DNA of 18,737 nucleotides, taken from the IMG/VR virus record IMGVR_UViG_3300027987_000266; one strand, written 5' to 3'. The translations under genes and the position numbers were made by a program. This document shows positions 515 through 17,276 of this stretch, in pieces. Source of the stretch: a virus. A model generated the notes under the pieces. It saw only the letters and a program-made list of their open reading frames with translations, searched no databases and was not told where the DNA came from. Positions within the stretch are counted from its first letter, which is position 1. The number at the start of each line of letters is the position of its first letter.

Positions 515-618
515 TTGTTTCTCCTGAATAGACGGCTGAGGAGTCGTAGAATCCAGTGCTGCTTTTTGGGCTTGATGCGGGCTTGCAGGAGTTTGATGGC
601 TGTTTCTTCGTCCGTCAT
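511..618 (-). CDS. small basic protein, 35 aa (MTDEETAIKLLQARIKPKKQHWILRLLSRLFRRNK). It is below the 60-aa ORF-track cutoff and so absent from the track.
   Basis: ATG 618..616 overlaps the TGA of the upstream gene (ATGA). Its TGA 513..511 overlaps the ATG of the downstream gene (ATGA). It fills a 100-nt gap that is otherwise unexplained. Codon use matches the neighbours. Confidence 0.4.
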   Translation of the reverse strand: MTDEETAIKLLQARIKPKKQHWILRLLSRLFRRNK

Positions 619-1070
619 TTCGCCTCCGCTGGAAGGAATCGGCGGCAGGTGTCGGGCTTAATGGGTGTCTTGATTTGGACGAATCGCCGGTCTGGGTCGG
701 CTAAAGTTGCGTGCACTCCGTCGATCTCCATGATCGTGTACTCTTCGTCGTTGTGAATCAGTGTGCCGTGATCACGACTGATAACGACGAGATCACCGGG
801 AGTGCCGGGATCGACGACGTCGGCCAGCAGAATCCAGTATTGGTTGTTGGCGTGTTCCAGCTTCTGCGTGGACTGCAGGAGGTAAAACTCGAAATCGACT
901 GTTCCGGCCATTTCAGCACTCCAACCAAGGGATTTCAGGGCGGTTGCGGCGAGTCCTTGCTTGATGCTCGCCGCCATAAGTGCTTGTTGCGGATCGTCTG
1001 TGGCGAGATAAATGGAGTCGTAGACGCTTCCGATTGAGTTCCTGATTCTCCAAACGTGCATGTTAGTCAT
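615..1070 (-). CDS. hypothetical protein, 151 aa from ATG 1070 (the ORF track extends it to 1106). Member of the C-terminal DLADP-module family (..YTIMEIDGVHATLADPDRRFVQIK..)
   Basis: ATG 1070..1068 sits in a gATGAc-taa context that overlaps the upstream stop by 8 nt. Long ORF. Confidence 0.6.
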   Translation of the reverse strand: MTNMHVWRIRNSIGSVYDSIYLATDDPQQALMAASIKQGLAATALKSLGWSAEMAGTVDFEFYLLQSTQKLEHANNQYWILLADVVDPGTPGDLVVISRDHGTLIHNDEEYTIMEIDGVHATLADPDRRFVQIKTPIKPDTCRRFLPAEAK

Positions 1071-1488
1071 CGTAAAGCTCCGACACAGGACGTCCGAGAA
1101 CGACAAGGTGGACGTTCATCCGACGAAGTATTGTCTCGATACTGTTGGGATCGGAGAGATCGTGACGACTAGTTCCAGCCCAAGATTGATTCGCTGGATC
1201 GAAGAATTGTAGCCGCAACTGATTCTCATCCAGTCGCAGGTCTGCGAACGGCCGCTCGTATCCGGCAGTGAGTCGCCAGTGGGACGCGGGGTGGCGGACC
1301 GGGCGGCTGTTGTCGTCGATGAAGTAAGTGTCGGGATTGAGGGAGACGCTGCGTGGTCCCTTGATTACGACAACTTCACCGCTGGGGCGGTAGAATCTGA
1401 CGTACTCGCCCACTGAAAGCTCTAGGTGCGGTTCTGCGACGTAGCCCTCGAAGGACTCGACGAGTGCTTTGGCTAAGGCTTCGAGCAT
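1063..1488 (-). CDS. hypothetical protein, 141 aa. DLADP-module family (..LRLQFFDPANQSWAGTSRHDLSDPNSIETILRRM..)
   Basis: ATG at 1488. There is a 16-nt overlap with the upstream gene. ORF track. Confidence 0.65.
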   Translation of the reverse strand: MLEALAKALVESFEGYVAEPHLELSVGEYVRFYRPSGEVVVIKGPRSVSLNPDTYFIDDNSRPVRHPASHWRLTAGYERPFADLRLDENQLRLQFFDPANQSWAGTSRHDLSDPNSIETILRRMNVHLVVLGRPVSELYDD

Positions 1489-1877
1489 GGTGCGACAGGA
1501 ACGACCGTCAGGTTGTCTACGAGCAGGTCGTCGATCCTTTCTTGGGCTGCTTCTTCTGATGGGTAGAGCGTCGCTTCGAAGAAGTTGCGGTGGAATTCGT
1601 CGGCTTCGTCGTCGCCGTTGATGTAATGGTCGTACCAGAGATTGCGGGCTTCGTCGTAGATGACGTAGGCTGCAGCTTCGATCTTCAACGCTCTGACGGA
1701 ATATGCTGTGTCAGTGCCGACCACGTGCCAAGCGACGACAGCACCTTGTGTCCAGTCTTCCGGCAATTCCGTCAGTTCGGCATTCGCATGCTTTTCTGCA
1801 ATTGCTCGTAGTCCGTCGATCGTGTTCGGACCGTAGACTTCGGTGCCGTTTGGTCCTTCGATTGTTAGAACGTACAC
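1473..1877 (-). CDS. hypothetical protein, about 134 aa from GTG 1877 (VYVLTIEGPNGTEVYGPNTIDGL...). The ORF-track extension to 2120 is a Ser/Thr/Asn-rich alternate frame of the next gene.
   Basis: AGGAGActgacc GTG gives a strong SD at correct spacing. The stop of the upstream gene (1888) lies just upstream. Confidence 0.55.
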   Translation of the reverse strand: MYVLTIEGPNGTEVYGPNTIDGLRAIAEKHANAELTELPEDWTQGAVVAWHVVGTDTAYSVRALKIEAAAYVIYDEARNLWYDHYINGDDEADEFHRNFFEATLYPSEEAAQERIDDLLVDNLTVVPVAPCSKP

Positions 1878-1887
1878 GGTCAGTCTC

Positions 1888-2886
1888 CTAGGAATTGGGG
1901 AGTAGTGAAGAAAGTCGTTGGTCGATCTGAGCGAGTTGTTGTAAGTGTTCTTCTTTGCGGCGGACCATGTCGTTGTAGAGTTGGTGGTCCTGTTCGACGA
2001 GTTGCTTGGCGACTGCGACGATGTTCTCGGGAGTGCACCAAGGGTTTGTTGGTTCGATGTTGGCTTCGAAGCGGACGCCGATTTGGCTGGTCCAGGCGAT
2101 GTGGCTCGGACTGATTGCAACGGTGAGTGTGAATTGGGAGTAGACGCAGCCGTCGCCGTTTGTTGGTCGTTGGCCGTCGAGCCAGGCGTCTTTGACGGCT
2201 TTTGTCTGGTCGGCGTAGAGTTGGCTGCTCTCCCACGTGAGGTAGGCGTGGCCGTCTCCGCCTTTGCAGCGTTTGATGGCTGGTCTGTCGTCGTTCCACC
2301 AGACTTTCTTGACTTCTTCGGCGATCAGGTTTTGGATGGCTCCTTTGTCCATGGGCGGGGTGCCCTTGAACGTGTCGACTCGTTTGAGGAAGTCGGCGAT
2401 GGACTGTGAAGCTTCGTATTGGCACTTGGAATCATGTTCGCCGCGTCCGTAGGAGTGGTTTTGGTCGCGGACTGAGACGTAGATTCTGTTGCGGCTTCGA
2501 CTGCTGGCTGCTCTTGTGTGGACTTTGACGCCGAGTTGGGTGTGGGTGAAGCGGAATGCTCCGGTGATTTCGCTGTACTCGTTCTGCTTGAATCCTCGTT
2601 CGAGCAGGCCGTCGCGGAGTTCGCGGATTTTGTCGAGTTGTGGTGGGTAGAGTTTGTAGCTCTTGCCGTCGCGGGTGGCTGAGTAGTCGATTTCGTCTGG
2701 TTTGGTGGGTGTGACCGGTTCGCCTTTTTCTGCGATGGCGATCAGGTCACTTTCGTCGACTTCGAGGGATTTGGCGACGCGGTATGATTCGATTGGTTCG
2801 AGTTTGCCACCAAAGGTTTTTAGCCAGTGGTGTGGGTTGACTCGGTTTTCAGTTGCTAGATTTGTGGCACTTGTCATTAGTGTCAT
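1888..2886 (-). CDS. hypothetical protein, 332 aa (or 329 aa from ATG 2877, which has GAGGA 9 nt upstream). It is the largest ORFan in the window. I did not recognise a domain.
   Basis: Long ORF with no alternative. Start is 1 to 10 nt after the upstream TGA. Confidence 0.7.
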   Translation of the reverse strand: MTLMTSATNLATENRVNPHHWLKTFGGKLEPIESYRVAKSLEVDESDLIAIAEKGEPVTPTKPDEIDYSATRDGKSYKLYPPQLDKIRELRDGLLERGFKQNEYSEITGAFRFTHTQLGVKVHTRAASSRSRNRIYVSVRDQNHSYGRGEHDSKCQYEASQSIADFLKRVDTFKGTPPMDKGAIQNLIAEEVKKVWWNDDRPAIKRCKGGDGHAYLTWESSQLYADQTKAVKDAWLDGQRPTNGDGCVYSQFTLTVAISPSHIAWTSQIGVRFEANIEPTNPWCTPENIVAVAKQLVEQDHQLYNDMVRRKEEHLQQLAQIDQRLSSLLPNS

Positions 2887-2889
2887 TCC

Positions 2890-3234
2890 TCAGACCCTCA
2901 GGACTTTTTTCAGGTGTTCTAATACGGTGTCGGGGAATTGTGGGTCGGCGAGATCGAACTCGACGCGGTTGGCGACGTTGTTACTGAGTGCCAGTACGCC
3001 GTCCCAACAGAAAACCGTTGTGCGATGTAGGCAGATTCCAGGACTCCCTCCTCGTTTGCCAGTGGTGAGAAATCTGAGAGTCGGTGCCGAAGTTCGCTCT
3101 TTGTCGTGGAGAGTGCGGACGACGTCGAGCAGAATGTCGTTGGCGAGACAGAGTTCGTCGATCAGCTTAATCACAGCGTCTCGAATCTCGTTCTCGATGC
3201 CTTTCGCTTTCTTGATGGCCTTGCCCCTTGGCAT
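2890..3234 (-). CDS. hypothetical protein, 114 aa from ATG 3234 (MPRGKAIKKAKGIENEIRD...). DLADP-module family (..NRVEFDLADPQFPDTVLEHLKKVLRV)
   Basis: GGAGGcgactgATG gives a strong SD. The TGATG start/stop shares 1 nt with the upstream gene. The ORF-track start at 3270 would overlap 36 nt. Confidence 0.6.
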   Translation of the reverse strand: MPRGKAIKKAKGIENEIRDAVIKLIDELCLANDILLDVVRTLHDKERTSAPTLRFLTTGKRGGSPGICLHRTTVFCWDGVLALSNNVANRVEFDLADPQFPDTVLEHLKKVLRV

Positions 3235-3713
3235 CAGTCGCCTCCGCAGGGTCCGCCCCCTTGACGACAAGCGTACTCGTCCTCGAACTCGTTCGGCCCG
3301 TTGGGATTGCAGTATGGGCAGCCAACGAGGACTTCCGACAAGCCGATGATCTTGACGTCGTCGGTGCCGAGTCCGATGCGGACTTCACCGTTGCTGACGT
3401 CGATGATGATCGGTTCGCGGCCTTCCGGGGTGACGACGAGGCCGTGTTGGTCGGTCGTGATCTCGAACTTGACGGTGGTTCCGCTGGACGCGTCGGTGGC
3501 GGTGTGGTTGATCGGATGGTTTGCCGAGCCACCGAGCGGCACGGCGAGGCCGATTCGGTACTCCGTCTGATCCTCGTTGACTTCGACGAGGCCGAGGTCT
3601 GCGAGAATGAGGACGTCGGGGCGAGCGTCTTCGCCAAGGTGAGTCCAGTTGCCGCCTGAGGCGTAGTCTTGGGCGAATCGCAGCAGTCGTTGTTGGTTGC
3701 TTGTGAGCGTCAT
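3234..3713 (-). CDS. hypothetical protein, 159 aa (MTLTSNQQRLLRF...) with a Cys/Gly-rich C-terminus (CPYCNPNGPNEFEDEYACRQGGGPCGGD). The ORF-track extension to 4109 is alternate-frame low complexity.
   Basis: TAAcATG junction with the upstream gene. The region downstream of 3713 has non-low-complexity composition. Confidence 0.6.
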   Translation of the reverse strand: MTLTSNQQRLLRFAQDYASGGNWTHLGEDARPDVLILADLGLVEVNEDQTEYRIGLAVPLGGSANHPINHTATDASSGTTVKFEITTDQHGLVVTPEGREPIIIDVSNGEVRIGLGTDDVKIIGLSEVLVGCPYCNPNGPNEFEDEYACRQGGGPCGGD

Positions 3714-3714
3714 G

Positions 3715-4161
3715 TTACCCCGCAAAGAATCGAAGGAGGTTGCTGAGAATGGCCAGGATGGCTCCGGCGAGGGCGACCTTCGCCCAGAAGATAGCTCGCT
3801 TTGAGTGCTTGATGGCGAGTTCGCTGTGGTGCATCGCTTCGCCTTCATGCCACTGTGCCTGTTGGCGGTGCCATTGTGGGGAGTTGCTGCAGATTCGCTT
3901 GATCTGGTTGTCGGCAGCGTTGTTGAACTCACCAAGATGGTAGTACCAGATACGCTCCGTCTCTGGTCGTGTAGTGTCCACTTTGTCGGTGAGCCAGAGC
4001 AGGTCGACGCACTCTGGCTCGTTATTCGCCTTGCAGAGCGAGATGCGGAAGAGGGCTTGGCCGTCGAGTTCGTAGTAGACGCTGGTGGCGTCTCCTTTGG
4101 TGGCCTCAAGGCCGTGGGTTCCGCGAATGTGTCGGATTGTCTGTTCGAGACTGTGGTTCAC
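3715..4161 (-). CDS. hypothetical protein, about 148 aa from GTG 4161. The C-terminus has a hydrophobic segment (AIFWAKVALAGAILAILSNLL), so it is probably membrane-anchored.
   Basis: GTGA overlap with the upstream stop. GAAAGG SD-like sequence lies 6 nt upstream. The track extension to 4374 is an Arg-rich alternate frame. Confidence 0.5.
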   Translation of the reverse strand: MNHSLEQTIRHIRGTHGLEATKGDATSVYYELDGQALFRISLCKANNEPECVDLLWLTDKVDTTRPETERIWYYHLGEFNNAADNQIKRICSNSPQWHRQQAQWHEGEAMHHSELAIKHSKRAIFWAKVALAGAILAILSNLLRFFAG

Positions 4162-4496
4162 GTTGAGCCTTTCGTGTTCTTGAGATCGAAGAGACCCTTG
4201 GCAACGCTCACGACGCCAGCGACAGAGGCGTCGAGGTTGGCGTCGGGAGAGGCGGGATCGCCGTGTTCGAAAGTGACCCACTCGTAGTTCTTGCTGCCGT
4301 GAAAGCCAGAAGTGCCACAGATCAGCCCGATGCGAACGTTCGTGTCGTACGCTTCGACTCGTGGACTTCCCCACACGTTGTCGAGCATCAAGCCGTGATT
4401 GCGGCGAGTGAACCAGATTCTGGCCTTCTCAAGCTCGCCTTCGATTGTCTTGATGAGAATCTGCTGGACTGTGACTGGTTTCTTCTGTTTGGCCAT
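4158..4496 (-). CDS. hypothetical protein, 112 aa
   Basis: ATG at 4496 with GGGAGA SD. Clean ORF. Confidence 0.7.
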   Translation of the reverse strand: MAKQKKPVTVQQILIKTIEGELEKARIWFTRRNHGLMLDNVWGSPRVEAYDTNVRIGLICGTSGFHGSKNYEWVTFEHGDPASPDANLDASVAGVVSVAKGLFDLKNTKGST

Positions 4497-4559
4497 TTTG
4501 CTGGTCTCCCGAACCGTGCGTTGTGTGTCTGCACGATTGTTGCAGAGACAGGCTCTCGG

Positions 4560-4895
4560 TTAACCCCCGTTGCCGAGATTCGCCACCGAGTCTTTGATCC
4601 ACTCCTTCACTTGGCGGGCGTTCGTGATGTCGTCTACTTCCTTCTTGCCGTTTGGGGTCTTGGTGAAGGCGTCGCTGTCCGGCTGGTAGTAGGCAGAACG
4701 GTGAATCTTACGACCCCGCTTGAGGCCGTCGCCGGGAGTGATCTTGATTGTCTCCATCTCAACCCGAAGCTTCGGGATCGTTTCAGGCTCCGCAATGTCT
4801 GCACCGGACTTGCCATGAAGGTGGAGTGTTGCTTTGATGGCGAACTGTAGCTGGAATGTGGTCTCTGCGATTTGGATTGACTGCGGTTTGCTCAT
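4560..4895 (-). CDS. hypothetical protein, 111 aa
   Basis: ATGA overlap with the upstream gene. Followed by a 63-nt non-coding gap. Confidence 0.7.
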   Translation of the reverse strand: MSKPQSIQIAETTFQLQFAIKATLHLHGKSGADIAEPETIPKLRVEMETIKITPGDGLKRGRKIHRSAYYQPDSDAFTKTPNGKKEVDDITNARQVKEWIKDSVANLGNGG

Positions 4896-5176
4896 AGAAA
4901 TTCGGTGACTCCTTCGACAATCGCGATGCTGTCCTGATTGTACTGTTGGCGGATTGTGGTGAGGCGTTTCTTGATGTTAGCCAGTTGCTCTTCGCTGTGG
5001 ATCACGCAGACCCAGGCTGCGTTCTGCCACTTGGCCTCCGGTGCTGAGAATCCAGAGAACTGAATCTCAGTGTGATTCACCCACAGAGCCTCGTTGATAT
5101 GACGAATGTAGTCCGCCCACTTGGATTGGCCGAGCTTGTCGTCGCTGTTCCCAATACAAATCGTGATCGTTTTCAT
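4892..5176 (-). CDS. hypothetical protein, 94 aa
   Basis: ATGA overlaps at both ends. Confidence 0.7.
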   Translation of the reverse strand: MKTITICIGNSDDKLGQSKWADYIRHINEALWVNHTEIQFSGFSAPEAKWQNAAWVCVIHSEEQLANIKKRLTTIRQQYNQDSIAIVEGVTEFL

Positions 5177-5553
5177 AGCTTGTCCCTTGTGTCGACACGC
5201 AGAATCAAGTCCTGCTCCGGGTATTCGAGCTGATAGCCGTACCGCCGAGTGTGGCGGTAGCCGCTGTGGTAATTCCTGTATCGCAACGCTTTCTGAAATC
5301 CGTCCTTCTCGCGGTCAGACAGCACTCTGACGACGGCTCGGACCCTGTAGGTGACGTCCTGCCAAGTGATGCGGACCGGCCGTTCAACGAGAGAACCAAC
5401 GACCCAGGAGTGCTTGTCTGGGACGTCTTCGATTTCAACGAGAACGAGGTCGGACGCCGGATCGTCGAGATGCTGCTCGCTCATCGTCCATTCTTCGAAC
5501 GAGCCGCTTTGCAGCTGTTTGACGAGAGCATAGACGTCGATCCGCTTTGTCAT
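5173..5553 (-). CDS. hypothetical protein, 126 aa
   Basis: ATGA overlaps at both ends. Confidence 0.7.
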   Translation of the reverse strand: MTKRIDVYALVKQLQSGSFEEWTMSEQHLDDPASDLVLVEIEDVPDKHSWVVGSLVERPVRITWQDVTYRVRAVVRVLSDREKDGFQKALRYRNYHSGYRHTRRYGYQLEYPEQDLILRVDTRDKL

Positions 5554-6095
5554 ACCACCAACTCCACGTCGAAAGTCGGTGTGCCCTCCTTCTTCTGTTT
5601 ACGCTTCCCGTCCAACTGCTCCCACTCGACGGGCAGTTCTGGGTACTTGCTTCTGCCGAGGCGGTCCTTCTCCGGTCGGTACATTCCGAACATCATCCAC
5701 TGTTCGTTCTCCGGATGCTCCGGAATCGGGATCGTCTCCCACGTGAAGCCAATACAAGGGCGTGGCGAACTCCCTGGCCCGCTCGTCGTGATGCCCTGAC
5801 TGATCCACCAATGACGCTCCCAATCACTCGCAAGGTGCCAAATCCTGTCCCGCCAAATGACCGGCGTCAAGACGCACGAATCACCGGGAATGCGGAACGG
5901 ATTCACCAAAAGGCAGGACTCTTGGTCCGGATCGACTGGCACGCCGCGTTGGACAACCAAGCAACAATCGATGCAGCCGTACGCGTCGTCCGGGCTTTTG
6001 ACGTCTGAGGGGATCAGGCCGTTCAGCTGCCGCCAGTCCGTGATCTCGTAGACTTTCTTGACGAGCCAGATTTGGGCTGTGAGCTTTCTACTCAT
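5550..6095 (-). CDS. hypothetical Trp/Cys-containing protein, about 181 aa from ATG 6095 (the track gives 6122)
   Basis: GGAGG lies 13 nt upstream of ATG 6095. An 8-nt overlap with the upstream stop is more typical here than 35 nt. Confidence 0.6.
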   Translation of the reverse strand: MSRKLTAQIWLVKKVYEITDWRQLNGLIPSDVKSPDDAYGCIDCCLVVQRGVPVDPDQESCLLVNPFRIPGDSCVLTPVIWRDRIWHLASDWERHWWISQGITTSGPGSSPRPCIGFTWETIPIPEHPENEQWMMFGMYRPEKDRLGRSKYPELPVEWEQLDGKRKQKKEGTPTFDVELVV

Positions 6096-6789
6096 CTTGT
6101 GGCTTCTGCCTCCACGCTTCAAGTGCTCCCTCGAGTAGGACTTTGTCGAGGGTGTTAAGTATTGGCTGTTTTCTTGTCATGAACCAGAACGGGTCCCTAC
6201 GGTTCCTGGCTCTCATGAGTCGTTTGTCTTCCGTCCATTTGATCGCTTGAAACTGGAAGTTTTCGTTGACAATTAGACGAATGTTGGGGCCACCACTGTC
6301 TGCACGCTTTTCACCGCAACGAAACAGCGGGTAAGCGTAAGGAGTGTCGGGGACCGCCTTCATGAAGAGGCCGTCCGTCTCCTGCACGACGAATCCGATG
6401 ACCTTTGCCGATTTGATGACGTGGTTGTAGAGTACCGTCCCGTCATAGGTCGTCTTGACGTCTGTTCCGTCGAACAACTGCCACTGCGGCCTGACGAGCA
6501 GATCGTCGTTGAATCGACCAATCTGATAGATTGTTGTCTCTGTGCAATTCGCACAAAGGCGTCCGGCGTCGTAACTGTCAAAGTCGAAGCTCTGCGATTG
6601 CTTGAAGGATCGCTTCTTGCCGCAAAGAGTCCTGACTACTTCTCCGATCTGAGCGTGAACTTGGTGATCCTCGTCCCTGAACGAGACAAGGTGGTTCATC
6701 GTTTTACCGGTTGCAAGTTGCGTGGTGACTTGGTAGAAGTCACGGCTGATGTGCCGAGCGTGAAAAGCTGTTGGGTCGTTCTTACTCAT
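6088..6789 (-). CDS. hypothetical protein, 233 aa. Contains C-x-K..C-x-x-C (LCGKKR...CANCTE), a possible zinc-ribbon.
   Basis: ATG at 6789 with an 8-nt overlap to the upstream stop. Confidence 0.7.
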   Translation of the reverse strand: MSKNDPTAFHARHISRDFYQVTTQLATGKTMNHLVSFRDEDHQVHAQIGEVVRTLCGKKRSFKQSQSFDFDSYDAGRLCANCTETTIYQIGRFNDDLLVRPQWQLFDGTDVKTTYDGTVLYNHVIKSAKVIGFVVQETDGLFMKAVPDTPYAYPLFRCGEKRADSGGPNIRLIVNENFQFQAIKWTEDKRLMRARNRRDPFWFMTRKQPILNTLDKVLLEGALEAWRQKPQDE

Positions 6790-7129
6790 CGGGCACGAGG
6801 TCTTTCGTTTTCATGACGCTGGCGATTTCACGGCCGATCTCACCGAGCTTTCGCCGGAGAGCGAGGGCTGCTTTTCGCGGTGTGTCGTACCCCTCTTCTC
6901 TGATCTTCTTGCCGTTGATCTGTGCCCACCAGCCGCGTCCGTCGTGATTCTCCCCATCAGGTGAGAAGCCGAACACGACGAGTCGCCAAGGGTTCATGTA
7001 GACGAACTCGGTGTGCAGGCGAAGACGCCAGCTGACTTCCATCACTGGCGGTCCCTCCTTGCGGTGTATCGGCTTGCCGATCCTGTGTTCGAAGTCTCTG
7101 ATTGAGAACATGGCTTGCTTTGTCTCCAT
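6782..7129 (-). CDS. hypothetical protein, 115 aa (alternative start ATG 7111 with GGAGA upstream)
   Basis: ORF track. Position in the array. Confidence 0.6.
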   Translation of the reverse strand: METKQAMFSIRDFEHRIGKPIHRKEGPPVMEVSWRLRLHTEFVYMNPWRLVVFGFSPDGENHDGRGWWAQINGKKIREEGYDTPRKAALALRRKLGEIGREIASVMKTKDLVPDE

Positions 7130-7138
7130 GCCGAACTG

Positions 7139-7420
7139 TTACACAGAGGGCGTCGAGGTAAACGACGCGACCAGAGAGAGTTCTACGGCGACATAGCGAG
7201 GATCAACGCCGGATTGAGTGGTGAAAGACTGTATGAACTCGTCTTTGACGAAGCAGTTCTCGTCGAAGTGATCTACGAGATTCCAGGACGGTGCTCGATC
7301 CCCGTGCCATTTTGGCTGCCCAACGGTCCTGTCGAGTCCCCAATGGTCGTCGTCGAGTCGAATGAAAGCGACGACCTGATTCGATTCGCCGCCACGATGG
7401 ATGATCACCTTTCGAGGCAT
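7139..7420 (-). CDS. hypothetical protein, about 93 aa from ATG 7420 (the track gives 7477)
   Basis: GGGAGGG lies upstream of ATG 7420. The 7477 start would overlap the upstream gene by 73 nt. Confidence 0.5.
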   Translation of the reverse strand: MPRKVIIHRGGESNQVVAFIRLDDDHWGLDRTVGQPKWHGDRAPSWNLVDHFDENCFVKDEFIQSFTTQSGVDPRYVAVELSLVASFTSTPSV

Positions 7421-7845
7421 CGTGCTGGTACCCTCCCAAACTTTTTCTGCATGACGATCGCCAAGCATTCCCACCACGTGTCCTCGTCGCCCTCAGGAGG
7501 CTCCGTCACGAGTCCCCTCGCTTTGCATGCAACGAGTCGCGGAGTTTCAATCTCGATCCATCGCCAAATCCGGTCGAACAGGTGAGGGTCGGCGAACATG
7601 AAGTCCCGCCACAGGTCGTAGCCTGTAGTCACTGAGATGCCCTCTGATGCGATGCGAATGCTCCAGTTGACTTCGACGTCCATTTCTCGATACTCGCCGC
7701 TTACGTTCCACGACGTCTCATCGAAATTCGGCAAGTTCGTCATATGCGGTGGATTATGGCTCTCGTAGTTCTTGCCGACTGTGTGGCCAGTCCGTCGCCG
7801 TGCTTGCTCTTTGAGTTCGTCGGCGATGATTTTGTGGATGTTCAT
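7405..7845 (-). CDS. hypothetical protein, 146 aa. DLADP-like module (..WRDFMFADPHLFDRIWRWIEIE..)
   Basis: ATGA overlap at the start. Confidence 0.7.
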   Translation of the reverse strand: MNIHKIIADELKEQARRRTGHTVGKNYESHNPPHMTNLPNFDETSWNVSGEYREMDVEVNWSIRIASEGISVTTGYDLWRDFMFADPHLFDRIWRWIEIETPRLVACKARGLVTEPPEGDEDTWWECLAIVMQKKFGRVPARCLER

Positions 7846-8186
7846 TGTCTCGGTATCGGCGTGTAGAATTCGACTAGCCTGTCGATGCTCGTTGGGTCGT
7901 TCAGGTCAACTGTCAAGCACTCGCCAATTGAGAGCCACGTGTCGTTGAGGTTTACGTTGTGGTGTGTGTGCCCGCATTTGAACTTGAGTGGTTCGCCGCT
8001 CCAAATCAGCTGTTGGTCAATCCCTTTGATCTTGATCGGCTCGATCTTGACGACGCCGAAGATGTGTTCCTGTTCCGGATTTCGTTCGTCGTCGTCTGGT
8101 GCCCAATAGTGGACTTCGACGCCTGTCCTTTCGGTGATCTCAATGACGATCGCTGTGAGCGTGTCGTTCTTTAGAATTCTGTCCAT
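7842..8186 (-). CDS. hypothetical protein, 114 aa. DLADP-like module (..CLTVDLNDPTSIDRLVEFY..)
   Basis: ATGA overlap at the stop. 16-nt overlap at the start. Confidence 0.7.
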   Translation of the reverse strand: MDRILKNDTLTAIVIEITERTGVEVHYWAPDDDERNPEQEHIFGVVKIEPIKIKGIDQQLIWSGEPLKFKCGHTHHNVNLNDTWLSIGECLTVDLNDPTSIDRLVEFYTPIPRQ

Positions 8187-8857
8187 TCGCCGTCGAGTAT
8201 CCTTTTCGTGTTGCCCTCGACTTCGTCCTTTGGTGTGGTGCGTAGGGCAATGACGGTTTGTTCGATCTGTTCGAGTTCCTCATCTTCAATGCGGAAGTGT
8301 CTTTTGACGGCGTGTCGCCACGGGAAGTCGAGGTCGTACGGGTCGATGTTGAACCATTTTCGCAAGGCCCAGGCGACGAGCATTCTGCCGAGTGTGAATT
8401 TCTTGGATTCCTCTTTTGGCGGGGCTTCGTCGGGGACAAAGACGTATTCTTGGTCGGTGTCCTTGTATTGTCGCTTCCATTTGGAGGGGCGTTTGTTGTG
8501 TTCTTTGATGTGCTTGTCGAGGAATGCACCTAGGACGTCACAGAAGTCGGGGCGGTAAATGTCGATTCTGATTTCGTCGAAAGCGTTGACTGGTCTGCCG
8601 GTGATGGTGTGGTAGCGGAGGTCCCACCGCTCCAGCCGGATAGGTTTGTCGTCCTTGAAGGCGATCACTTTCACGGCGGCTCGGTCTGGGTCGTAGGTGA
8701 TGTAGATCGGGCCTTCGTACTCGATCACGCGTTTGGTTTGTTCGGCGTAGCAGACGGTGTGGACGTGGTAGTTGTCGGAACGGTGCTTGATGCCTCGTTC
8801 TCGCATTGTGACGCGGATCAGTTCTCTGACGCCTTTTGTGATTTGTTCCATCACCAT
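8171..8857 (-). CDS. hypothetical protein, 228 aa
   Basis: ATG at 8857. Long clean ORF. Confidence 0.7.
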   Translation of the reverse strand: MVMEQITKGVRELIRVTMRERGIKHRSDNYHVHTVCYAEQTKRVIEYEGPIYITYDPDRAAVKVIAFKDDKPIRLERWDLRYHTITGRPVNAFDEIRIDIYRPDFCDVLGAFLDKHIKEHNKRPSKWKRQYKDTDQEYVFVPDEAPPKEESKKFTLGRMLVAWALRKWFNIDPYDLDFPWRHAVKRHFRIEDEELEQIEQTVIALRTTPKDEVEGNTKRILDGEWTEF

Positions 8858-9006
8858 GCCCTATCTGAAACTCGGTCTGGCAGAAATCGCTTCCAGAGCC
8901 AGTAGTCGAGTGCCTTGTTGAGTGTTGACTTTCTCCATGGCGGCTGCTTTTTTGGCGGCAGGAGAAGCCAGCGTTTGTGGATTTTCTTTGCCTGCCTCTT
9001 TTTCAT
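8851..9006 (-). CDS. small basic Trp-rich protein, 51 aa (MKKRQAKKIHKRWLLLPPKKQPPWRKSTLNKALDYWLWKRFLPDRVSDRAW). Absent from the ORF track because it is under 60 aa.
   Basis: ATG 9006..9004 overlaps the TGA of the upstream gene (ATGA). The stop overlaps the ATGgtg start of the downstream gene by 7 nt. It fills a 145-nt gap. Confidence 0.4.
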   Translation of the reverse strand: MKKRQAKKIHKRWLLLPPKKQPPWRKSTLNKALDYWLWKRFLPDRVSDRAW

Positions 9007-9359
9007 AGTTCTGGATCGTCTGTTACGATGCGTCCGCCACCATCGTACCGCTTGAGAATCACGTAGTTGTGCAAATGGCGGAAGAGATTGGGGTCAGCGT
9101 AGTCGACGGGGTAAACTGAATTGGACGGATGGCCCGGAAGCACGTACGCTCTCGTTGGAGTGCACCGGATTTGATAGAACATCTGGCGACGCCCGCTTGG
9201 AGTCTTGTCGTCTCGAACGTAGTAGTTGCCGCAGACGTTCCACGAGTCCATGCTGTGACGCTGGATTTTGACGCTGTGGTCGCTGACGGTCCGCTTGATC
9301 CATTCTTCGATGCTGATGGCGATCTGGCAGACTGTGTGTTGTCGGTCGTACGTTCTCAT
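9003..9359 (-). CDS. hypothetical protein, 118 aa from ATG 9359. DLADP-like module (..VYPVDYADPNLFRHLHNYVIL..)
   Basis: ATGA overlap with the upstream stop. The track extension to 9377 is less likely. Confidence 0.6.
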   Translation of the reverse strand: MRTYDRQHTVCQIAISIEEWIKRTVSDHSVKIQRHSMDSWNVCGNYYVRDDKTPSGRRQMFYQIRCTPTRAYVLPGHPSNSVYPVDYADPNLFRHLHNYVILKRYDGGGRIVTDDPEL

Positions 9360-9538
9360 GCTGCTTTCTGCCAACAAGTCTTGTCGTTGATCTCTTCGTC
9401 GTAATAGCGGAATTCGGGTTGTCGGCCTTCGTTCTTGAGTGCGGCGATAATCCGGAAAAGGGCCGCTGGCTCTTCGGTCTTGATGGTGGCTGTCATTCCG
9501 TCGAATTTGACTTCGACTTCGGTGGTGTTGGTTCGCAT
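9356..9538 (-). CDS. hypothetical small protein, about 60 aa (start uncertain: 9538 has AAGGA-8nt-ATG; 9496 gives an ATGA overlap and 46 aa)
   Basis: ORF track. Candidate starts all have SD or coupling signals. Confidence 0.4.
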   Translation of the reverse strand: MRTNTTEVEVKFDGMTATIKTEEPAALFRIIAALKNEGRQPEFRYYDEEINDKTCWQKAA

Positions 9539-9891
9539 GGGTTCCATCCTTTGTGAACGTGGTTGTGAACTTTCTCGAAAAACTCAGGATCGGCGAGATC
9601 GAACTCGACGATTGGCTGTGGCCCTTCTGGCTTCTCTTCCTTCTGTGACCACCTGCCGGTAATCAGCCTTCGCTGCAAGTAAAGCTTGCCGTTGGTAAGT
9701 CCAAAGGCGAAGCAAGGAGACACTCTCCAGCTGTCGTCGCTTATAACCGGCTTTGCACAGACGTAGCTCTCATGAGTGTCTGGGGTTTCGCCGCTGTGGA
9801 GTTCGCACTCTTCACAAATCTGATGCCACAGCATCCGATTCTCGAAATCCATCGAGTGCAGCTCTTGTCCTTTGAAGACGGTCACTTTCAT
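9493..9891 (-). CDS. hypothetical Cys/His-containing protein, 132 aa. DLADP-module family (..PIVEFDLADPEFFEKVHNHV..)
   Basis: ATGA overlap at the start. Confidence 0.7.
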   Translation of the reverse strand: MKVTVFKGQELHSMDFENRMLWHQICEECELHSGETPDTHESYVCAKPVISDDSWRVSPCFAFGLTNGKLYLQRRLITGRWSQKEEKPEGPQPIVEFDLADPEFFEKVHNHVHKGWNPCEPTPPKSKSNSTE

Positions 9892-10739
9892 CCGATTGTT
9901 CCAATTGCCGCTCTAATCAACTCCATATCGTCCTCATTCAGAGTCGTGACATCGAGCGGATTATTGCCGGTGACAAAGAGCTTGTCGTCCGCAGTCAGCT
10001 TGATCACGTTTTGGTTGTGCTGGATGGCGACCATAAACTCATCGGCCTTCTCATTCAGCAATACCAGGAAGCTGCGGTGACTGTAATCCTTCACTTCGAT
10101 GAGGAAGTACAGATGCTCTTCCAATTCTGGACTCTCGACGTCCTTGTAAACTCTGGCATTGTCCACGTCCACGCGACAAAATCCGTGGCTGTGGGCGACA
10201 CGGAGGATGTTGCCGCGAATCGCCTTTGAGCCATCCATTCTGATGCGACCTCCGAGCGGTTTTCGCCACTTCATGCGGGCGGCGGCTGTCTTGTCGATTT
10301 TCTTTTTGGTGCGTCCTTTCGGTGGTGCTCCCAGGATTAAGGCGACAGCGGCTGAGGCTTCATCGAAGTCGATTGTCTTGCTTTCTGGTTGGTATTTGCC
10401 GTTTGGCTGCCGAACCACTATGACCAGAATGAAACGTGGCTCCTGAACGTGCTTGTAGCAGGGATAGTAACGAACCTCGATTCCGGTGCCGAGGTCAGTC
10501 CGTAAGCTCCTGGCATAAACTCCGTAGATTCCATCGTCGTCCTGACAGCGGAGGATTTTGGTGTCTTTGTATGGTGCGATGTTCGGTGACGAAATGTGGC
10601 TATTGAGGCTGACTCGCTTGTTGCCACAACAGATGGCGTCATGCAGAGCACGCTGAATGCTAATAACGGCCATACCGTTGGCCACGAGGTTTGTCTGCTG
10701 GCTCTCGTCAGCCGGAACGTCGATAGTTTCGTGAGTCAT
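9888..10739 (-). CDS. hypothetical protein, 283 aa. The C-terminal half resembles a PD-(D/E)xK nuclease core (..RVDVD..20aa..LYFLIEVKD..).
   Basis: ATGA overlaps at both ends. The D...E-V-K spacing is typical of restriction-endonuclease-like, Hjc or VRR-NUC folds. This call is by motif only. Confidence 0.65.
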   Translation of the reverse strand: MTHETIDVPADESQQTNLVANGMAVISIQRALHDAICCGNKRVSLNSHISSPNIAPYKDTKILRCQDDDGIYGVYARSLRTDLGTGIEVRYYPCYKHVQEPRFILVIVVRQPNGKYQPESKTIDFDEASAAVALILGAPPKGRTKKKIDKTAAARMKWRKPLGGRIRMDGSKAIRGNILRVAHSHGFCRVDVDNARVYKDVESPELEEHLYFLIEVKDYSHRSFLVLLNEKADEFMVAIQHNQNVIKLTADDKLFVTGNNPLDVTTLNEDDMELIRAAIGTIG

Positions 10740-11338
10740 CCGGCAATTCCTGTGAGTTTGTCTTTGATGAAGCTGAGGACTGCGGCTTCGTTGTCGGGAT
10801 GAAAGGGCTTCTTATCCCACATCAGAGTGTTTTCGGCTGGATTGTAAGTGAGAACCCAGTTGTTGTAGTTCTCATTCCAAACACGTGCCTTGACTTTGAT
10901 CTCAAGCGTCGCTGCCGGATCTTCGACCGGCTTCTTGTTCTTGCTGCGGATTTCGAGAGTAGCCTCAAGAACGACCATCGGGGAGAATGTCTGGTTGCCG
11001 AGCTTGAGAGTGGTGGCCTTGGCGGCTTCTCTTCGATTGTTTATGTCGGCTTCGATCAGGTCGCCGATCGGGTTCCCCTGCAGATCGTGCATTCGGTGGA
11101 ATTCCGCCAGATGCTGCTCACTGAGGGCAAACTCTTCGTCGTAGGCACAGGCCCACGTCATGTCGGTGACTTGGCCGTTCTGCAGTTTCTTGCCGGTGTG
11201 GCGGCACGGAATGTTGTTGCGGTGTCTGTCTTTGACGTAGGCGGTGACGCCGCTTTGGTTCAGGCGGAAGACGTCGTATTCCTTGGTCGGATCGAACTCG
11301 CCTTTGCCGCACTTGATGAATTCGAGAGGGTACTTCAT
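10736..11338 (-). CDS. hypothetical protein, 200 aa from ATG 11338 (MKYPLEFIKCGKGEFDP...). The track extension to 11818 is an Arg-rich alternate frame of the upstream gene.
   Basis: ATGA overlap with the upstream stop at 11335. Confidence 0.65.
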   Translation of the reverse strand: MKYPLEFIKCGKGEFDPTKEYDVFRLNQSGVTAYVKDRHRNNIPCRHTGKKLQNGQVTDMTWACAYDEEFALSEQHLAEFHRMHDLQGNPIGDLIEADINNRREAAKATTLKLGNQTFSPMVVLEATLEIRSKNKKPVEDPAATLEIKVKARVWNENYNNWVLTYNPAENTLMWDKKPFHPDNEAAVLSFIKDKLTGIAG

Positions 11339-11895
11339 CGGCCCAGAGACTCCCTCAGTTTCTTGTGGAAGCGAGCGATTCGTTTTTTCAAGACCGGAGC
11401 TTTGAACCAATGGTAGACGACTTCCTGCCGAAAGCTGGTGAGATGCTGGACGTGCGTGTGGTATGAGCACGTCTCCGTCGAAATCCAGGCCCGCGTCTTC
11501 GTCGGGTCGTTCGTCTCCAAATCGTAGTAGAGAACGAGAGCCGTCAAGTCCAGCCCCTCCTTCTCTTTCATGTAGTTGGACATTGGGACGTCTGAGAGTG
11601 CTTCGATCTTTGGCACGTTCACGCCATGCACGATCACGAGATCGAGCGGATAGGCGTTCGGCGTTGCAAGTCCGTCGAGTCCTTCGCTGAATCCGATCTC
11701 GACATTCGCCGGATCGAACGGGTTGCCGAGCAGCAGGAAGCCGCCGAGCTTGGCTTGTGTCGACGAATAGTTGCTGGTCGTCCTGGCCCAGATTTGGTGA
11801 AGCGGAGCGTTCGCCCACCCCATCGGGATGAAAGCGTCTGCTTCGTTTTGCGGAAAGACGATCCGCTCGAATCGACCTTTGGGGACGTCACTCAT
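11335..11895 (-). CDS. hypothetical protein, 186 aa from ATG 11895 (MSDVPKGRFERIVF...)
   Basis: GGAGAAcactgcATG gives a strong SD. It is preceded by a 78-nt non-coding gap. Confidence 0.65.
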   Translation of the reverse strand: MSDVPKGRFERIVFPQNEADAFIPMGWANAPLHQIWARTTSNYSSTQAKLGGFLLLGNPFDPANVEIGFSEGLDGLATPNAYPLDLVIVHGVNVPKIEALSDVPMSNYMKEKEGLDLTALVLYYDLETNDPTKTRAWISTETCSYHTHVQHLTSFRQEVVYHWFKAPVLKKRIARFHKKLRESLGR

Positions 11896-11903
11896 GCAGT
11901 GTT

Positions 11904-11959
11904 CTCCGTTGCGGGGGCGTGGTGATCTGTACACAAGAGTGTTACAAGACCCAACGGAG
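11904..11959 (-). promoter_or_regulatory. Inverted repeat CTCCGTTG(c)GG ... CCCAACGGAG flanking about 38 nt. In the minus-strand mRNA the 3' arm contains the GGAG of the SD of gene 11335..11895.
   Basis: 8 bp plus a bulge plus 2 bp of complementarity, read from the sequence. The SD GGAGAA (revcomp of 11902..11907) lies in the arm. Confidence 0.3.
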
Positions 11960-11973
11960 CGTAAAACGCAGAG

Positions 11974-12528
11974 CTAACCCATTGTCGAGTACACGTGGAG
12001 AATGTCGAGTTCTGTGGCCGCCTTCTTGGCATGCTCTACAGCCAGCTCGATGCTGTCAGGGCATTCCAGATAGTAAGTGCGAGGCCCAAACTCCGTGAGA
12101 TGGTCGTAGTCCTTCCGTCTGTCTGGCCAAATCGCTTCGTCAACGTGGATGTTCGGACGATCGCACTTATAGTTGGCCTGGACTGTAAGCGGGCAGGCTC
12201 GCATCACGGAGTCACAAGCAACCCTGTACTTCCCGATACGCCAGTGTTCCGGTTCCGGCGTTAGATAGAGAATTGCGGGTCCTGGCTTTACGTCCTGGTC
12301 CTCACTCTTGGGTGTCGGTTTGTGACGCTGAAAATCGAGCCAAATGAAGCCCTCGACCACTGTGAGATTGAGCGGTCGTAGCTCTTCGGCTATACCGAGG
12401 ATTACGGCGAAGTTTTCTTTGTGGGCGTCGAGGATGCCGCCGTTGACTCTTGTCTCGATCTTCAAAGTGCTGGCCTTTCGTTCGGATAGCCGAGTCTCTT
12501 CAAGTGCCAGTGTAGCTTTTTGATGCAA
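11974..12528 (-). CDS. hypothetical protein, 184 aa from TTG 12528, or 164 aa from TTG 12465 (TTGA overlap with SD-like GAAAGG). C-terminal variant of the module (..YYLECPDSIELAVEHAKKAATEL..)
   Basis: ORF track. Start is uncertain. Confidence 0.5.
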   Translation of the reverse strand: MHQKATLALEETRLSERKASTLKIETRVNGGILDAHKENFAVILGIAEELRPLNLTVVEGFIWLDFQRHKPTPKSEDQDVKPGPAILYLTPEPEHWRIGKYRVACDSVMRACPLTVQANYKCDRPNIHVDEAIWPDRRKDYDHLTEFGPRTYYLECPDSIELAVEHAKKAATELDILHVYSTMG

Positions 12529-12920
12529 GATTCTATGGAGTCAGGATCGGCTAAGTCCCACTTGTACGGACTTGTGGGAGTATCGCCGACGACTCGTGCT
12601 CCGAATTCGTCGTGGCCGATCTCTCGGTGGAGTACCAGTTCGAGACGGTTACCACGGATTTTGAACGTGGCGGCCTTGAAGTATCGGTCTTTGAAGGCTT
12701 CGATTTCTTCGGCTGTCTCTGCCAGACTCGCATCAGCACCACGGTAAATGTCGTAGTGGGCGAAGAGCGTGCCGACGCCTCTTTTGATGAGCAGGTGGTC
12801 CCACGAAGATAGGTACAAGCGAAGGGCGTCGGCAATAGTGCCGACGCCCATCGAATTCTCTGCTCGACGTCTGCTTTGTTCGCTTCTGTCGATTGCTTGT
12901 TGGGACGATCTGACCGTCAC
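12462..12920 (-). CDS. hypothetical protein, 152 aa. DLADP-module family (..KAATFKIRGNRLELVLH..YKWDLADPDSIESCIKKLHWHLKRL..)
   Basis: GTGA overlap with the ligase stop. Confidence 0.7.
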   Translation of the reverse strand: MTVRSSQQAIDRSEQSRRRAENSMGVGTIADALRLYLSSWDHLLIKRGVGTLFAHYDIYRGADASLAETAEEIEAFKDRYFKAATFKIRGNRLELVLHREIGHDEFGARVVGDTPTSPYKWDLADPDSIESCIKKLHWHLKRLGYPNERPAL

Positions 12921-15202: not shown

Positions 15203-15286
15203 GTGTTTTGCGTCCTATGCTGGAGGTTGGGAATCTGCTTTGTTGTTGCAGGGCGAATACTCCCCGTTAATCAAATACCGCAAGAC

Positions 15287-16439: not shown

Positions 16440-16440
16440 G

Positions 16441-16869: not shown

Positions 16870-17234
16870 GTTTGTCTCCCGAACTCGGCGATTTTCGCCA
16901 AAAGTGATTGCTTGTCCGGACCAGCAAGGCCGGTCTCGGTGTCCAAGTACACACCAGTGTCGAGGCATTGTTGGCACAAACACCATGCAGCAGCGAAGAC
17001 GTCGAAGCTGTGCCGATCCGTGTCAATGTACCACACCGGATGCCGCTCGTGGCAGCAGTCGCAAGGCCCACTGTCCGGCTCGTTCATCGGCTGGATCAGC
17101 AGATTCTCAGGACGCACGCGGAGACGCTGAATGAGATCGACGATCGGCTGTAGAATCTCACCGATGCCCTCGTCGGGGCGTCCGTCGATCAGACCTTCGA
17201 GTGTGTCAATGGCGTCTTGTACTTCGCTCGACAT
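16866..17234 (-). CDS. hypothetical Cys-rich protein, 122 aa (..CDCCHERH..CLCQQC..)
   Basis: AGGAGAaacaacaATG gives a strong SD. Confidence 0.7.
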   Translation of the reverse strand: MSSEVQDAIDTLEGLIDGRPDEGIGEILQPIVDLIQRLRVRPENLLIQPMNEPDSGPCDCCHERHPVWYIDTDRHSFDVFAAAWCLCQQCLDTGVYLDTETGLAGPDKQSLLAKIAEFGRQT

Positions 17235-17250
17235 TGTTGTTTCTCCTGCT

Positions 17251-17265: not shown

Positions 17266-17276
17266 ACCGTCGCTGG

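What the first reader, a model, noticed from the sequence alone, without database searches (positions are those of the whole stretch)
2943..2965. Identical 21-nt stretch between two family members (2945..2965 and 9590..9610) encoding VEFDLADP
Genes 2890..3234 and 9493..9891 share tcggcgagatcgaactcgacg exactly (21 nt, or 23 nt with one mismatch). Their flanking DNA and proteins are otherwise divergent. At this divergence, synonymous sites should have drifted. The identity therefore suggests recent duplication, gene conversion or recombination within the family, or nucleotide-level constraint.
Basis: seen in the sequence. Interest (0 to 1): 0.55.

Follow-up and report, generated by a model that had tools for sequence, protein, structure and literature searches.

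The report
Shared codons of a conserved protein motif
Two otherwise unalignable genes share an exact 21-base stretch because both spell the most conserved eight residues of a large, unannotated paralog family with the genome's favourite codons; the match is real but mostly ordinary, and it is not a DNA element in its own right.

Summary
The 21-mer TCGGCGAGATCGAACTCGACG sits exactly at 2945-2965 and 9590-9610. It is the longest exact repeat in the window (next longest 14 nt) and the only significant self-BLASTN hit (24 nt, E 6e-4).

On the coding (minus) strand it reads as six in-frame codons, GTC GAG TTC GAT CTC GCC (+GA), for VEFDLA(D). This is the last beta-strand plus the 'DLADP' helix cap of an ORFan family. 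The family has 14 copies in the window and about 20 in 21 kb of the 111-kb source contig.

- **Recent duplication is excluded.** Identity stops at both ends, 4 of the next 6 shared residues use different codons, and the rest of the two genes is unalignable.
- **Codon bias explains most of it.** Five of the six codons are the preferred ones. Given the shared peptide, six identical codons have P about 0.011, and 21 nt anywhere in the window has P 0.003-0.005. Overall codon agreement (7 of 11) is ordinary against a family mean of 45%.
- **No DNA-level function is visible.** Other members spell the motif with other codons. An ortholog of another member in a genome about 80% identical shows 5 synonymous changes in 13 motif codons. 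There are no further copies and no promoter, terminator, RNA fold or Rfam hit.

Verdict: mainly peptide conservation plus codon bias. A short conversion patch cannot be excluded. Low interest.

The parts
2945..2965 (-). 21-mer copy 1. On the coding strand it reads (CG)C GTC GAG TTC GAT CTC GCC GA(C), encoding (R)VEFDLA(D) of gene 2890..3234.
9590..9610 (-). 21-mer copy 2. On the coding strand it reads (AT)C GTC GAG TTC GAT CTC GCC GA(T), encoding (I)VEFDLA(D) of gene 9493..9891.
2890..3234 (-). Family member P1, 114 aa. The AF2 model has helix 3-42, beta-hairpin 49-77, a short strand 80-84, strand 90-94 (RVEFD) and helix 100-111. The motif core VEFDLADP is at 2941..2964.
9493..9891 (-). Family member P2, 132 aa. 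The AF2 model has helix 16-31, a short strand 42-45, hairpin 55-80, strand 94-98 (IVEFD) and helix 104-115. The motif core is at 9586..9609. Its 3' end overlaps the next gene (9356..9547) by 55 nt.
18041..18511 (-). Family member, 156 aa, core RDFNLADP at 18089..18112.
17277..18041 (-). Family member, 254 aa, with the family domain at its C-terminus. Core KVFDILSP at 17331..17354.
15287..15793 (-). Family member, 168 aa, with a CxxC-rich insert. Core VEIDLDAP at 15371..15394.
12462..12851 (-). Family member, 129 aa, core YKWDLADP at 12543..12566.
11974..12465 (-). Family member, 163 aa, degenerate core RTYYLECP at 12058..12081.
9003..9359 (-). Family member, 118 aa, core YPVDYADP at 9090..9113. 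This is the only member with an ortholog in another sample (P0006, ENA contig L012).
8171..8857 (-). Family member, 228 aa, with the family domain at its N-terminus. Core IRIDIYRP at 8549..8572.
7842..8186 (-). Family member, 114 aa, core LTVDLNDP at 7893..7916.
7405..7845 (-). Family member, 146 aa, core RDFMFADP at 7585..7608.
4158..4496 (-). Probable divergent family member, 112 aa, core VTFEHGDP at 4254..4277.
1063..1488 (-). Family member, 141 aa, core SRHDLSDP at 1147..1170. It also uses GAT CTC for the Asp-Leu pair.
615..1070 (-). Probable family member, 151 aa, core VHATLADP at 693..716.

Best explanation
The 21-nt identity is a by-product of protein-level conservation, not a DNA element.

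Both copies encode the same eight residues, VEFDLADP. These are the consensus core of a lineage-restricted family of small alpha/beta proteins: an N-terminal helix, a long beta-hairpin, a last strand, 'DP', and a C-terminal helix. The family is present in 14 copies in this window and about 20 copies in 21 kb of a 111-kb phage-like contig.

In the models the core forms the last beta-strand (VEFDL) and the N-cap of the C-terminal helix (A-D-P), which is the best-predicted part of both models. Purifying selection keeps the peptide.

The genome's codon usage is strongly biased and rich in TCGA and GATC. GTC is used for 59% of Val, TTC for 84% of Phe, CTC for 50% of Leu and GCC for 49% of Ala. GAT accounts for 46% of Asp codons after TTC. 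Two independent spellings of the peptide therefore often coincide, and here six consecutive codons happen to.

Shown: the coordinates, frame, family membership, codon statistics and absence of flanking identity. Inferred: the structural role of the motif, and that the residual excess (P about 0.01) is luck rather than homogenisation.

The biological role of the family is not shown. My best guess is a diversified scaffold of early, host-directed accessory proteins of a phage.
For: - **Frame and position.** The copies are in the same frame and at a homologous position in two paralogs.
- **Family consensus.** The family consensus core is F-D-L-A-D-P. An in-register DNA repeat family of four 'DLADP' members at 77-100% identity shows a continuum rather than one special pair (D2).
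- **Codon usage.** Five of the six codons are the most used or co-most used ones. P(six identical codons | same peptide)=0.011 with independent codons and 0.011-0.012 with a codon-pair model. TCGA is 2.9x and GATC 1.8x over-represented.
- **Overall agreement is ordinary.** Over the 20-residue motif, 7 of 11 identical residues share a codon, against 45% family-wide. The chance of at least 6 of 9 is P=0.29.
- **Drift outside the run.** Right after the run, D, P, F and V use different codons.
- **No other similarity.** Nothing else is alike at DNA or protein level.
- **Synonymous sites are free in the motif.** The ortholog of member 9003..9359 from an ENA sample is 79-84% identical in DNA. It has 5 synonymous changes in 13 conserved motif codons.
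- **Structure models.** The strand and helix around the motif have the highest pLDDT, 86-89.
- **No DNA-level signal.** No promoter, terminator, stable RNA fold, Rfam hit or tRNA was found.
Against: - With the proteins held fixed and synonymous codons resampled, a shared stretch of at least 21 nt anywhere between genes of the window appears in only 0.25-0.5% of trials.
- Under a column-independent profile of the family, an 8-residue identical run in any pair has P about 0.006-0.01. The two cores are therefore closer than a star-like family predicts.
- The shared Asp codon GAT is the minor one overall (19%).
- The next-longest in-register match in any family pair is only 11 nt.
Confidence: 0.62

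Rival explanations
1. Short-patch homogenisation or closer ancestry of the C-terminal core. A gene-conversion or template-switch event between the two direct copies, which lie 6,645 nt apart, made the motif codons identical. Alternatively a more recent common origin of just this segment did so, and drift has not yet erased the identity.
For: There is a marginal statistical excess over codon bias: P=0.0025-0.011. The peptide core is more alike than a star-like family predicts, P about 0.006-0.01. Identity changes sharply to random at both edges. P1/P2 is the outlier among 171 in-register pairs, with 21 nt against 11 nt or less.
Against: - There is no flanking homology on which to initiate or resolve recombination. 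Any conversion would have had to start from a segment that was already nearly identical.
- The tract would be at most 21-24 nt. That is at or below the minimal homology usually needed for RecA-type exchange (my own knowledge of MEPS, about 20-30 bp).
- Overall codon agreement in the motif is not unusual (7 of 11).
- There is a single tract, with no second pair showing the same pattern.
- No phylogenetic incongruence can be demonstrated, because the N-terminal parts carry no signal for any pair.
Confidence: 0.27
2. A nucleotide-level functional site embedded in the coding sequence. This could be a phage-RNA-polymerase-type promoter, an operator or a recombination site. The 21-mer is a 17/21 imperfect palindrome, and it lies 43-59 nt upstream of the next gene's start in both cases.
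For: The length and exactness resemble phage promoter or operator sites. Both copies precede a downstream gene start by 43 nt (start at 9547) and 59 nt (start at 2886). The reverse complement matches the 21-mer itself with 4 mismatches.
Against: - There are only two copies in 27 kb at up to 3 mismatches.
- Both copies are in frame at the homologous position of a protein motif.
- About 18 other members encode the motif with other codons.
- Synonymous drift occurs in the motif of an orthologous pair.
- There is no sigma-70-like promoter or terminator.
- RNA folds do not differ significantly from shuffles, with z between -1.2 and +1.2.
- There is no Rfam hit.
- The quasi-palindromy follows from the genome-wide excess of TCGA and GATC.
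Confidence: 0.04
3. Recent whole-gene duplication, with the identity a remnant of it.
For: The two genes are paralogs on the same strand of the same gene block.
Against: Self-BLASTN finds nothing beyond 24 nt. BLASTP finds only 20 aligned residues at 60% identity. N-terminal similarity is at noise level. Synonymous sites differ directly next to the run.
Confidence: 0.01

Closest known systems
Nucleotide identity at conserved motifs of diverged paralogs, caused by purifying selection plus codon bias (a general phenomenon)
   Same: The identity is confined to the codons of the most conserved peptide. It is made of preferred codons, ends at the first variable residue or synonymous site, and has no function of its own.
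   Different: The run is somewhat longer than expected (P about 0.01), and one of the six shared codons (GAT) is the minor one overall.
Short-tract gene conversion among tandem paralogs, limited by the minimal efficient processing segment for homologous exchange
   Same: Direct-orientation paralogs 6.6 kb apart carry a sharply bounded patch of perfect identity.
   Different: There is no flanking homology. The patch is only 21-24 nt, there is a single instance, and concerted evolution could not be tested because no orthologs of these two genes are in any database searched.
[not shown]
   Same: These are small proteins with an N-terminal helix, an antiparallel sheet and a C-terminal helix packed on it. 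Gp1.2 and P7 are small phage proteins that bind host enzymes.
Conserved 23-nt promoters of T7-type phage RNA polymerases
   Same: A roughly 21-23-nt exactly repeated sequence lies a few tens of nucleotides upstream of a gene start.
   Different: There are only two copies, both in-frame spellings of one homologous peptide. No other copies occur in 27 kb at up to 3 mismatches. No single-subunit RNA polymerase gene was seen in the region available.

Membership tests
Recent gene duplication | Extended nucleotide identity across the gene and its flanks | tested here: not met
   Self-BLASTN finds only 24 nt. BLASTP finds 20 aa at 60% identity. N-terminal Smith-Waterman z=-0.25, rank 72 of 153.
Gene-conversion tract | Identity at synonymous sites significantly above what peptide conservation and codon usage give | tested here: inconclusive
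   P=0.011 for six codons and P=0.0025-0.005 for 21 nt window-wide. However, 7 of 11 codon matches overall against 45% in the family is not significant.
Gene-conversion tract | Flanking homology able to support strand exchange | tested here: not met
   There is no alignable DNA outside 2942..2965 / 9587..9610.
Gene-conversion tract | Concerted evolution: paralogs more alike within a genome than orthologs between genomes | not testable with these tools
   No orthologs of either gene were found in 5.8e9 and 1.84e9 protein sets, IMG/VR, JGI metagenomes or GTDB genomes. The one related contig (L012) begins 38 nt downstream of the P2 copy of the 21-mer.
Nucleotide-level functional element (promoter, operator, RNA motif) | Further copies, or copies outside the coding frame of the motif | tested here: not met
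   There are exactly 2 matches at up to 3 mismatches in the window. There are none beyond the two exact copies at up to 3 mismatches in the 27-kb region; the nearest other matches have 4-6 mismatches. The exact 21-mer in IMG/VR occurs only in three mutually homologous, unrelated genes.
Nucleotide-level functional element (promoter, operator, RNA motif) | Synonymous sites of the motif conserved in paralogs and orthologs | tested here: not met
   Codons vary among members. There are 5 synonymous differences in 13 conserved motif codons between member 9003..9359 and its ENA ortholog. This was not testable for P1 and P2 themselves.
Nucleotide-level functional element (promoter, operator, RNA motif) | Recognisable signal: sigma-70 promoter, intrinsic terminator, stable RNA structure or Rfam family | tested here: not met
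'DLADP' paralog family of this contig (unnamed, ORFan) | C-terminal core h-x-[FIVW]-D-L-A-D-P followed by an amphipathic helix (x-x-[FI]-[DE]-x-[IVL]-x-x-x-[LV]) at a homologous position | tested here: met
   Both genes carry the full consensus. The motif HMM finds all 17 members it was trained on at E 9e-8 to 2e-4 among the ORFs searched, and nothing else on the contig below E=0.7. That recovery is circular, since those members trained the model.
'DLADP' paralog family of this contig (unnamed, ORFan) | Common predicted topology: helix, beta-hairpin, strand, helix | tested here: met
   AF2 models of P1 and P2. Both rest on the same shallow alignment and have moderate pLDDT, so they are not independent.
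Any curated protein family (Pfam-A, PHROGs) | Significant profile match | tested here: not met
   There were no hits for 20 proteins of the window, except a weak PHROG 8027 hit to the CxxC insert of one member.
T7 Gp1.2-like / dsRBD-like alpha-beta3-alpha fold | Significant structural superposition | tested here: inconclusive
   [not shown]

The most novel reading that the evidence does not exclude
The conserved core of the family doubles as a microhomology junction. Under this reading, the roughly 20 tandem paralogs exchange or homogenise segments at the 'VEFDLADP' codons by short-patch conversion or template switching. The 21-nt identity would then be the footprint of an ongoing cassette-shuffling process that diversifies a new, massively expanded scaffold of phage accessory proteins.
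Probability: 0.06. Interest if true: 0.55.

Novelty: new member of a known kind. Interest (0 to 1): 0.15.

Why it matters
The 21-mer matters little as a DNA feature. It shows that a strongly conserved peptide plus strong codon bias can give an exact 21-nt repeat between genes that are otherwise unalignable. Such repeats should therefore not be read as evidence of recent exchange without a codon-aware null.

What lies behind it has modest interest. About 20 tandem copies of a small alpha/beta protein family occupy a 111-kb phage-like contig. The family has no relatives in Pfam or PHROGs, in two very large protein collections (1.84 billion and 5.8 billion sequences), in IMG/VR or in GTDB genomes. 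Expansions of this kind in phages often encode host-directed or anti-defence functions. No function can be assigned here.

Tried and rejected
- **Exact 21-mer in IMG/VR.** Three hits, all in one unrelated gene family whose frame carries stops. These are chance matches.
- **Megablast of the window against INPHARED phages.** No match.
- **Search for orthologs of P1 and P2.**
  - The search for homologous proteins with P2 and with the family alignment found only proteins of this contig, plus one ENA ortholog of a different member.
  - A profile search of 1.84e9 representatives found only this contig plus a repetitive false positive.
- **Degenerate VEFDLADP DNA pattern.** In IMG/VR and metagenomes it hit portal proteins, proteases, nucleotidyltransferases and antisense frames, with no family members. 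One C-terminal look-alike (L060/L118) had no other family features.
- **Motif-alignment scans.** The IMG/VR scan gave spurious hits at 68% GC. The GTDB genome scan gave 230 pattern hits, none confirmed.
- **LigA-related viral contigs L008-L010 (57-58% identity).** They carry only weak motif look-alikes (YDLSDPNSINFILDRV; FDDLDPQFFESIE), at E 0.004-0.3. This is not enough to call them family members.
- **LigA in GTDB genomes.** At most 37% identity (Polyangiaceae MAGs), so no host inference is possible.
- **Literature.** A paper search for the sample accessions found nothing.
- **Structure searches.** afdb50 was unavailable. The PDB and BFVD searches gave no convincing fold match.
- **Codon-pair null.** A Markov codon-pair model was tried to see whether TCGA/GATC context explains the run. 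The probability stayed at 0.011-0.012.
- **N-terminal similarity.** This was tested as a proxy for closer ancestry, but no family pair carries signal, so the test is uninformative.

Full report
**Observation**

The sequence TCGGCGAGATCGAACTCGACG occurs exactly twice on the + strand, at 2945..2965 and 9590..9610.
- Allowing 3 mismatches adds no further copy. Dinucleotide shuffles expect 0.01 matches.
- With its flanks the match is 24 nt with one mismatch. This is the only self-BLASTN hit below E=0.01 (E=5.7e-4).
- The next longest exact repeat in the window is 14 nt.
- The window is the reverse complement of part of a 111,253-bp JGI metagenome contig (3300027985, Ga0259481_10000192). It also matches a Logan contig of SRR7216773. 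The window and the JGI contig differ at 3 positions in 18.7 kb, none in the 21-mers.

**What the 21 nt are**

All plausible genes of the window lie on the minus strand. In the coding orientation the two sites read as follows:
- Gene 2890..3234, 114 aa, 'P1': CGC GTC GAG TTC GAT CTC GCC GAC CCA CAA TTC, encoding R-VEFDLADP-QF.
- Gene 9493..9891, 132 aa, 'P2': ATC GTC GAG TTC GAT CTC GCC GAT CCT GAG TTT, encoding I-VEFDLADP-EF.

The identity thus consists of one third-position base, six whole codons and two bases of the next codon, all in the same frame. Immediately after it the shared residues D, P, F and V use different codons. Of the six identical residues following the run, only H and K share a codon.

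**The family behind it**

The peptide is the consensus core of a paralog family.
- Fourteen minus-strand genes of the window carry, 15-45 residues before their end as a rule, a segment h-x-[FIVW]-D-L-A-D-P-x-x-[FI]-[DE]-x-[IVL]-x-x-x-[LV]. About 20 genes carry it in the 21 kb that I could assemble from the JGI contig.
- Upstream of this segment lie an N-terminal helix and an 'x-I-x-I-x-G/D-x-x-L-x-L' hairpin.
- Pairwise BLASTP links members only through this segment. The best pairs reach E of 1e-4 to 7e-4, and P1/P2 align over 20 residues at 60% identity.
- The AlphaFold2 model of P1 (pLDDT 72.5) has helix 3-42, hairpin 49-77, a short strand 80-84, strand 90-94 (RVEFD) and helix 100-111.
- The AlphaFold2 model of P2 (pLDDT 66.7) has helix 16-31, a short strand 42-45, hairpin 55-80, strand 94-98 (IVEFD) and helix 104-115.
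- Both models therefore share the order helix, long hairpin, last strand, C-terminal helix. In both, the strand and helix around the motif are the best-predicted part, at pLDDT 86-89.
- The models share one shallow alignment and are not independent.

I infer that 'VEFDL' is the last core strand and 'A-D-P' the N-cap of the C-terminal helix, which would explain why this is the most constrained piece.

**Is the family known?**

- Pfam-A and PHROGs give nothing for 20 proteins of the window, apart from a weak hit to a CxxC insert in one member.
- A profile of the family against 1.84 billion representative proteins returns only proteins of this contig and one repetitive false positive.
- The word-indexed search of 5.8 billion proteins adds a single protein, P0006. 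It is an ortholog of member 9003..9359 on an 824-nt ENA contig.
- BFVD has no match at E<0.001.
- Gp1.2 is an alpha-beta3-alpha, dsRBD-like protein (PMC9478638). The topology is similar, but the scores do not support membership.
- The only annotated gene in the block is an NAD-dependent DNA ligase (12917..15202). It is 57-58% identical to ligases of roughly 90-kb IMG/VR contigs. Those contigs carry homing endonucleases and glycosyltransferases and contain only weak motif look-alikes.

The element is therefore phage-like by inference only.

**Is the DNA identity more than the peptide plus codon bias gives?**

Codon usage in the 27-kb region is strongly biased. GTC is 59% of Val, TTC 84% of Phe, CTC 50% of Leu, GCC 49% of Ala and GAG 49% of Glu. 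Only GAT (19% of Asp) is a minor codon. GAT rises to 36% before C and to 11 of 24 (46%) after TTC. TCGA is 2.9-fold and GATC 1.8-fold over-represented.

| Test | Result |
|---|---|
| Six identical codons, given the shared peptide | P=0.011 |
| Same, with a codon-pair model | P=0.011-0.012 |
| A run of at least 6 among the 9 comparable codons | P=0.03 |
| At least 6 of 9 identical in any order | P=0.29 |
| Shared stretch of at least 21 nt anywhere between genes, proteins fixed, synonymous codons resampled or permuted | 0.25-0.5% of trials |
| Codon agreement at identical residues over the 20-residue motif | P1/P2 7 of 11; family mean 45% |
| Longest in-register identical run among 171 family pairs | P1/P2 21 nt; next best 11 nt |
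| 8-residue identical run in any pair under a column-independent profile | P about 0.006-0.01 |

P1/P2 is an outlier in run length mainly because it shares the most residues. Most of the identity is therefore what the same peptide and codon bias give. A marginal excess remains, at both the codon and the peptide level.

*Recent duplication* is excluded.
- Nothing aligns at DNA level outside the 24 nt.
- The N-terminal roughly 90 residues of P1 and P2 are no more alike than those of random family pairs (rank 72 of 153, z=-0.25).
- That test has no power for any pair, because the mean z over all pairs is about 0.

*Nucleotide-level constraint* has no support.
- The other members spell the motif with GAC or GAT, with CTC, CTG, CTT or TTA, and with GCC, GCA or GCT.
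- The ENA ortholog of member 9003..9359 is 79-84% identical in DNA. It has 5 synonymous changes among 13 conserved motif codons, YPVDYADP-LFRHL.
- There is no additional copy at up to 3 mismatches in the 27 kb.
- There is no sigma-70-type promoter or terminator.
- No RNA fold is better than shuffles.
- There is no Rfam family or tRNA.
- The 17/21 self-complementarity follows from the TCGA/GATC richness.

*Gene conversion or recombination* can be neither shown nor excluded.
- In favour: the small statistical excess and the sharp edges fit it.
- Against: there is no flanking homology to support exchange, the tract is only 21-24 nt, and there is a single instance.
- The decisive test is concerted evolution in a related genome.
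- The one related contig, L012, starts 38 nt downstream of the P2 copy of the 21-mer. It contains only the tail of the P2 ortholog, EGWNPCEPTRKSKSDSTD.

**Verdict**

- The best explanation (confidence about 0.6) is that the 21-mer is a by-product of purifying selection on the family's structural core, spelled with strongly preferred, context-biased codons, plus some luck.
- A short homogenised patch or closer ancestry of this segment remains possible (about 0.27).
- An embedded DNA or RNA signal is unlikely (about 0.04).
- The DNA identity itself is of low interest.
- The ORFan family expansion behind it is a new family of a known general kind, namely multi-copy small accessory proteins in a phage-like genome. 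It may merit separate follow-up.

Noticed in passing
window 615..18511 (minus strand); L004 337..720; L006 13065..14400: An ORFan paralog family fills the region: 14 members in the window and about 20 in 21 kb of the 111-kb contig. Members are 85-255 aa. The architecture is an N-terminal helix, a beta-hairpin, a 'DLADP' strand/cap and a C-terminal helix. There are no Pfam or PHROG hits and no relatives among 1.84e9 representative proteins outside this contig.
   Followed up: partly
window 15287..15793 (-): One family member carries a Cys-rich insert (CPDCEGTGQCTCPEE...CWECEGTGYQ) in the hairpin region. These are CxxCxGxG-type repeats reminiscent of DnaJ-type zinc fingers. There is a weak PHROG 8027 hit (E 9e-4).
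   Followed up: no
window 9493..9547: Gene 9493..9891 overlaps the next gene, 9356..9547, by 55 nt in another frame. The overlapping tail after the C-terminal helix (KGWNPCEPTPPKSKSNSTE) is conserved in the ENA relative (EGWNPCEPTRKSKSDSTD), so both frames seem to be maintained.
   Followed up: no
window 12917..15202 (-): A 761-aa NAD-dependent DNA ligase (PF01653, PF03120) is the only gene of the window with any annotation. It is 57-58% identical to ligases on roughly 90-kb IMG/VR contigs (3300033072_001097, 3300033075_001733, 3300033143_007503). It is at most 37% identical to any of 185,579 GTDB species genomes; the best hits are Polyangiaceae MAGs.
   Followed up: partly
whole window / merged 27-kb region: The oligonucleotide bias is strong. 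TCGA occurs 284 times against 99 expected and GATC 183 against 99. CGCG and GGCC are under-represented (82 and 109 against 164 expected). Much of this comes from NTC-GAN codon pairs. It could also reflect selection related to methylation or restriction.
   Followed up: no
window 14356..14369 and 16755..16768: The 14-mer CATCGAACTCGACA is repeated. In both places it also encodes V-E-F-D in frame, once in the ligase and once in ORF 16441..16986. Neither site has the rest of the family motif, so this is probably a chance product of the same codon preferences.
   Followed up: partly
L012 (ENA ERZ27313075, k141_566292, 824 nt) vs window 8660..9550: A second population exists that is about 79-84% identical in DNA and has the same gene order: P2 tail, the 63-aa gene, the member at 9003..9359, and the start of the member at 8171..8857. 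The 51-aa ORF at 8851..9006 is missing from that contig.
   Followed up: partly
window 3234..4109 and 10736..11818 (-): The long ORFs listed mechanically (291 and 360 aa, with TTG/GTG starts) have low-complexity, Ser/Thr/Arg-rich N-terminal parts. The JGI gene calls split them into 148+159 aa and 186+200 aa. The long versions are probably not real.
   Followed up: no
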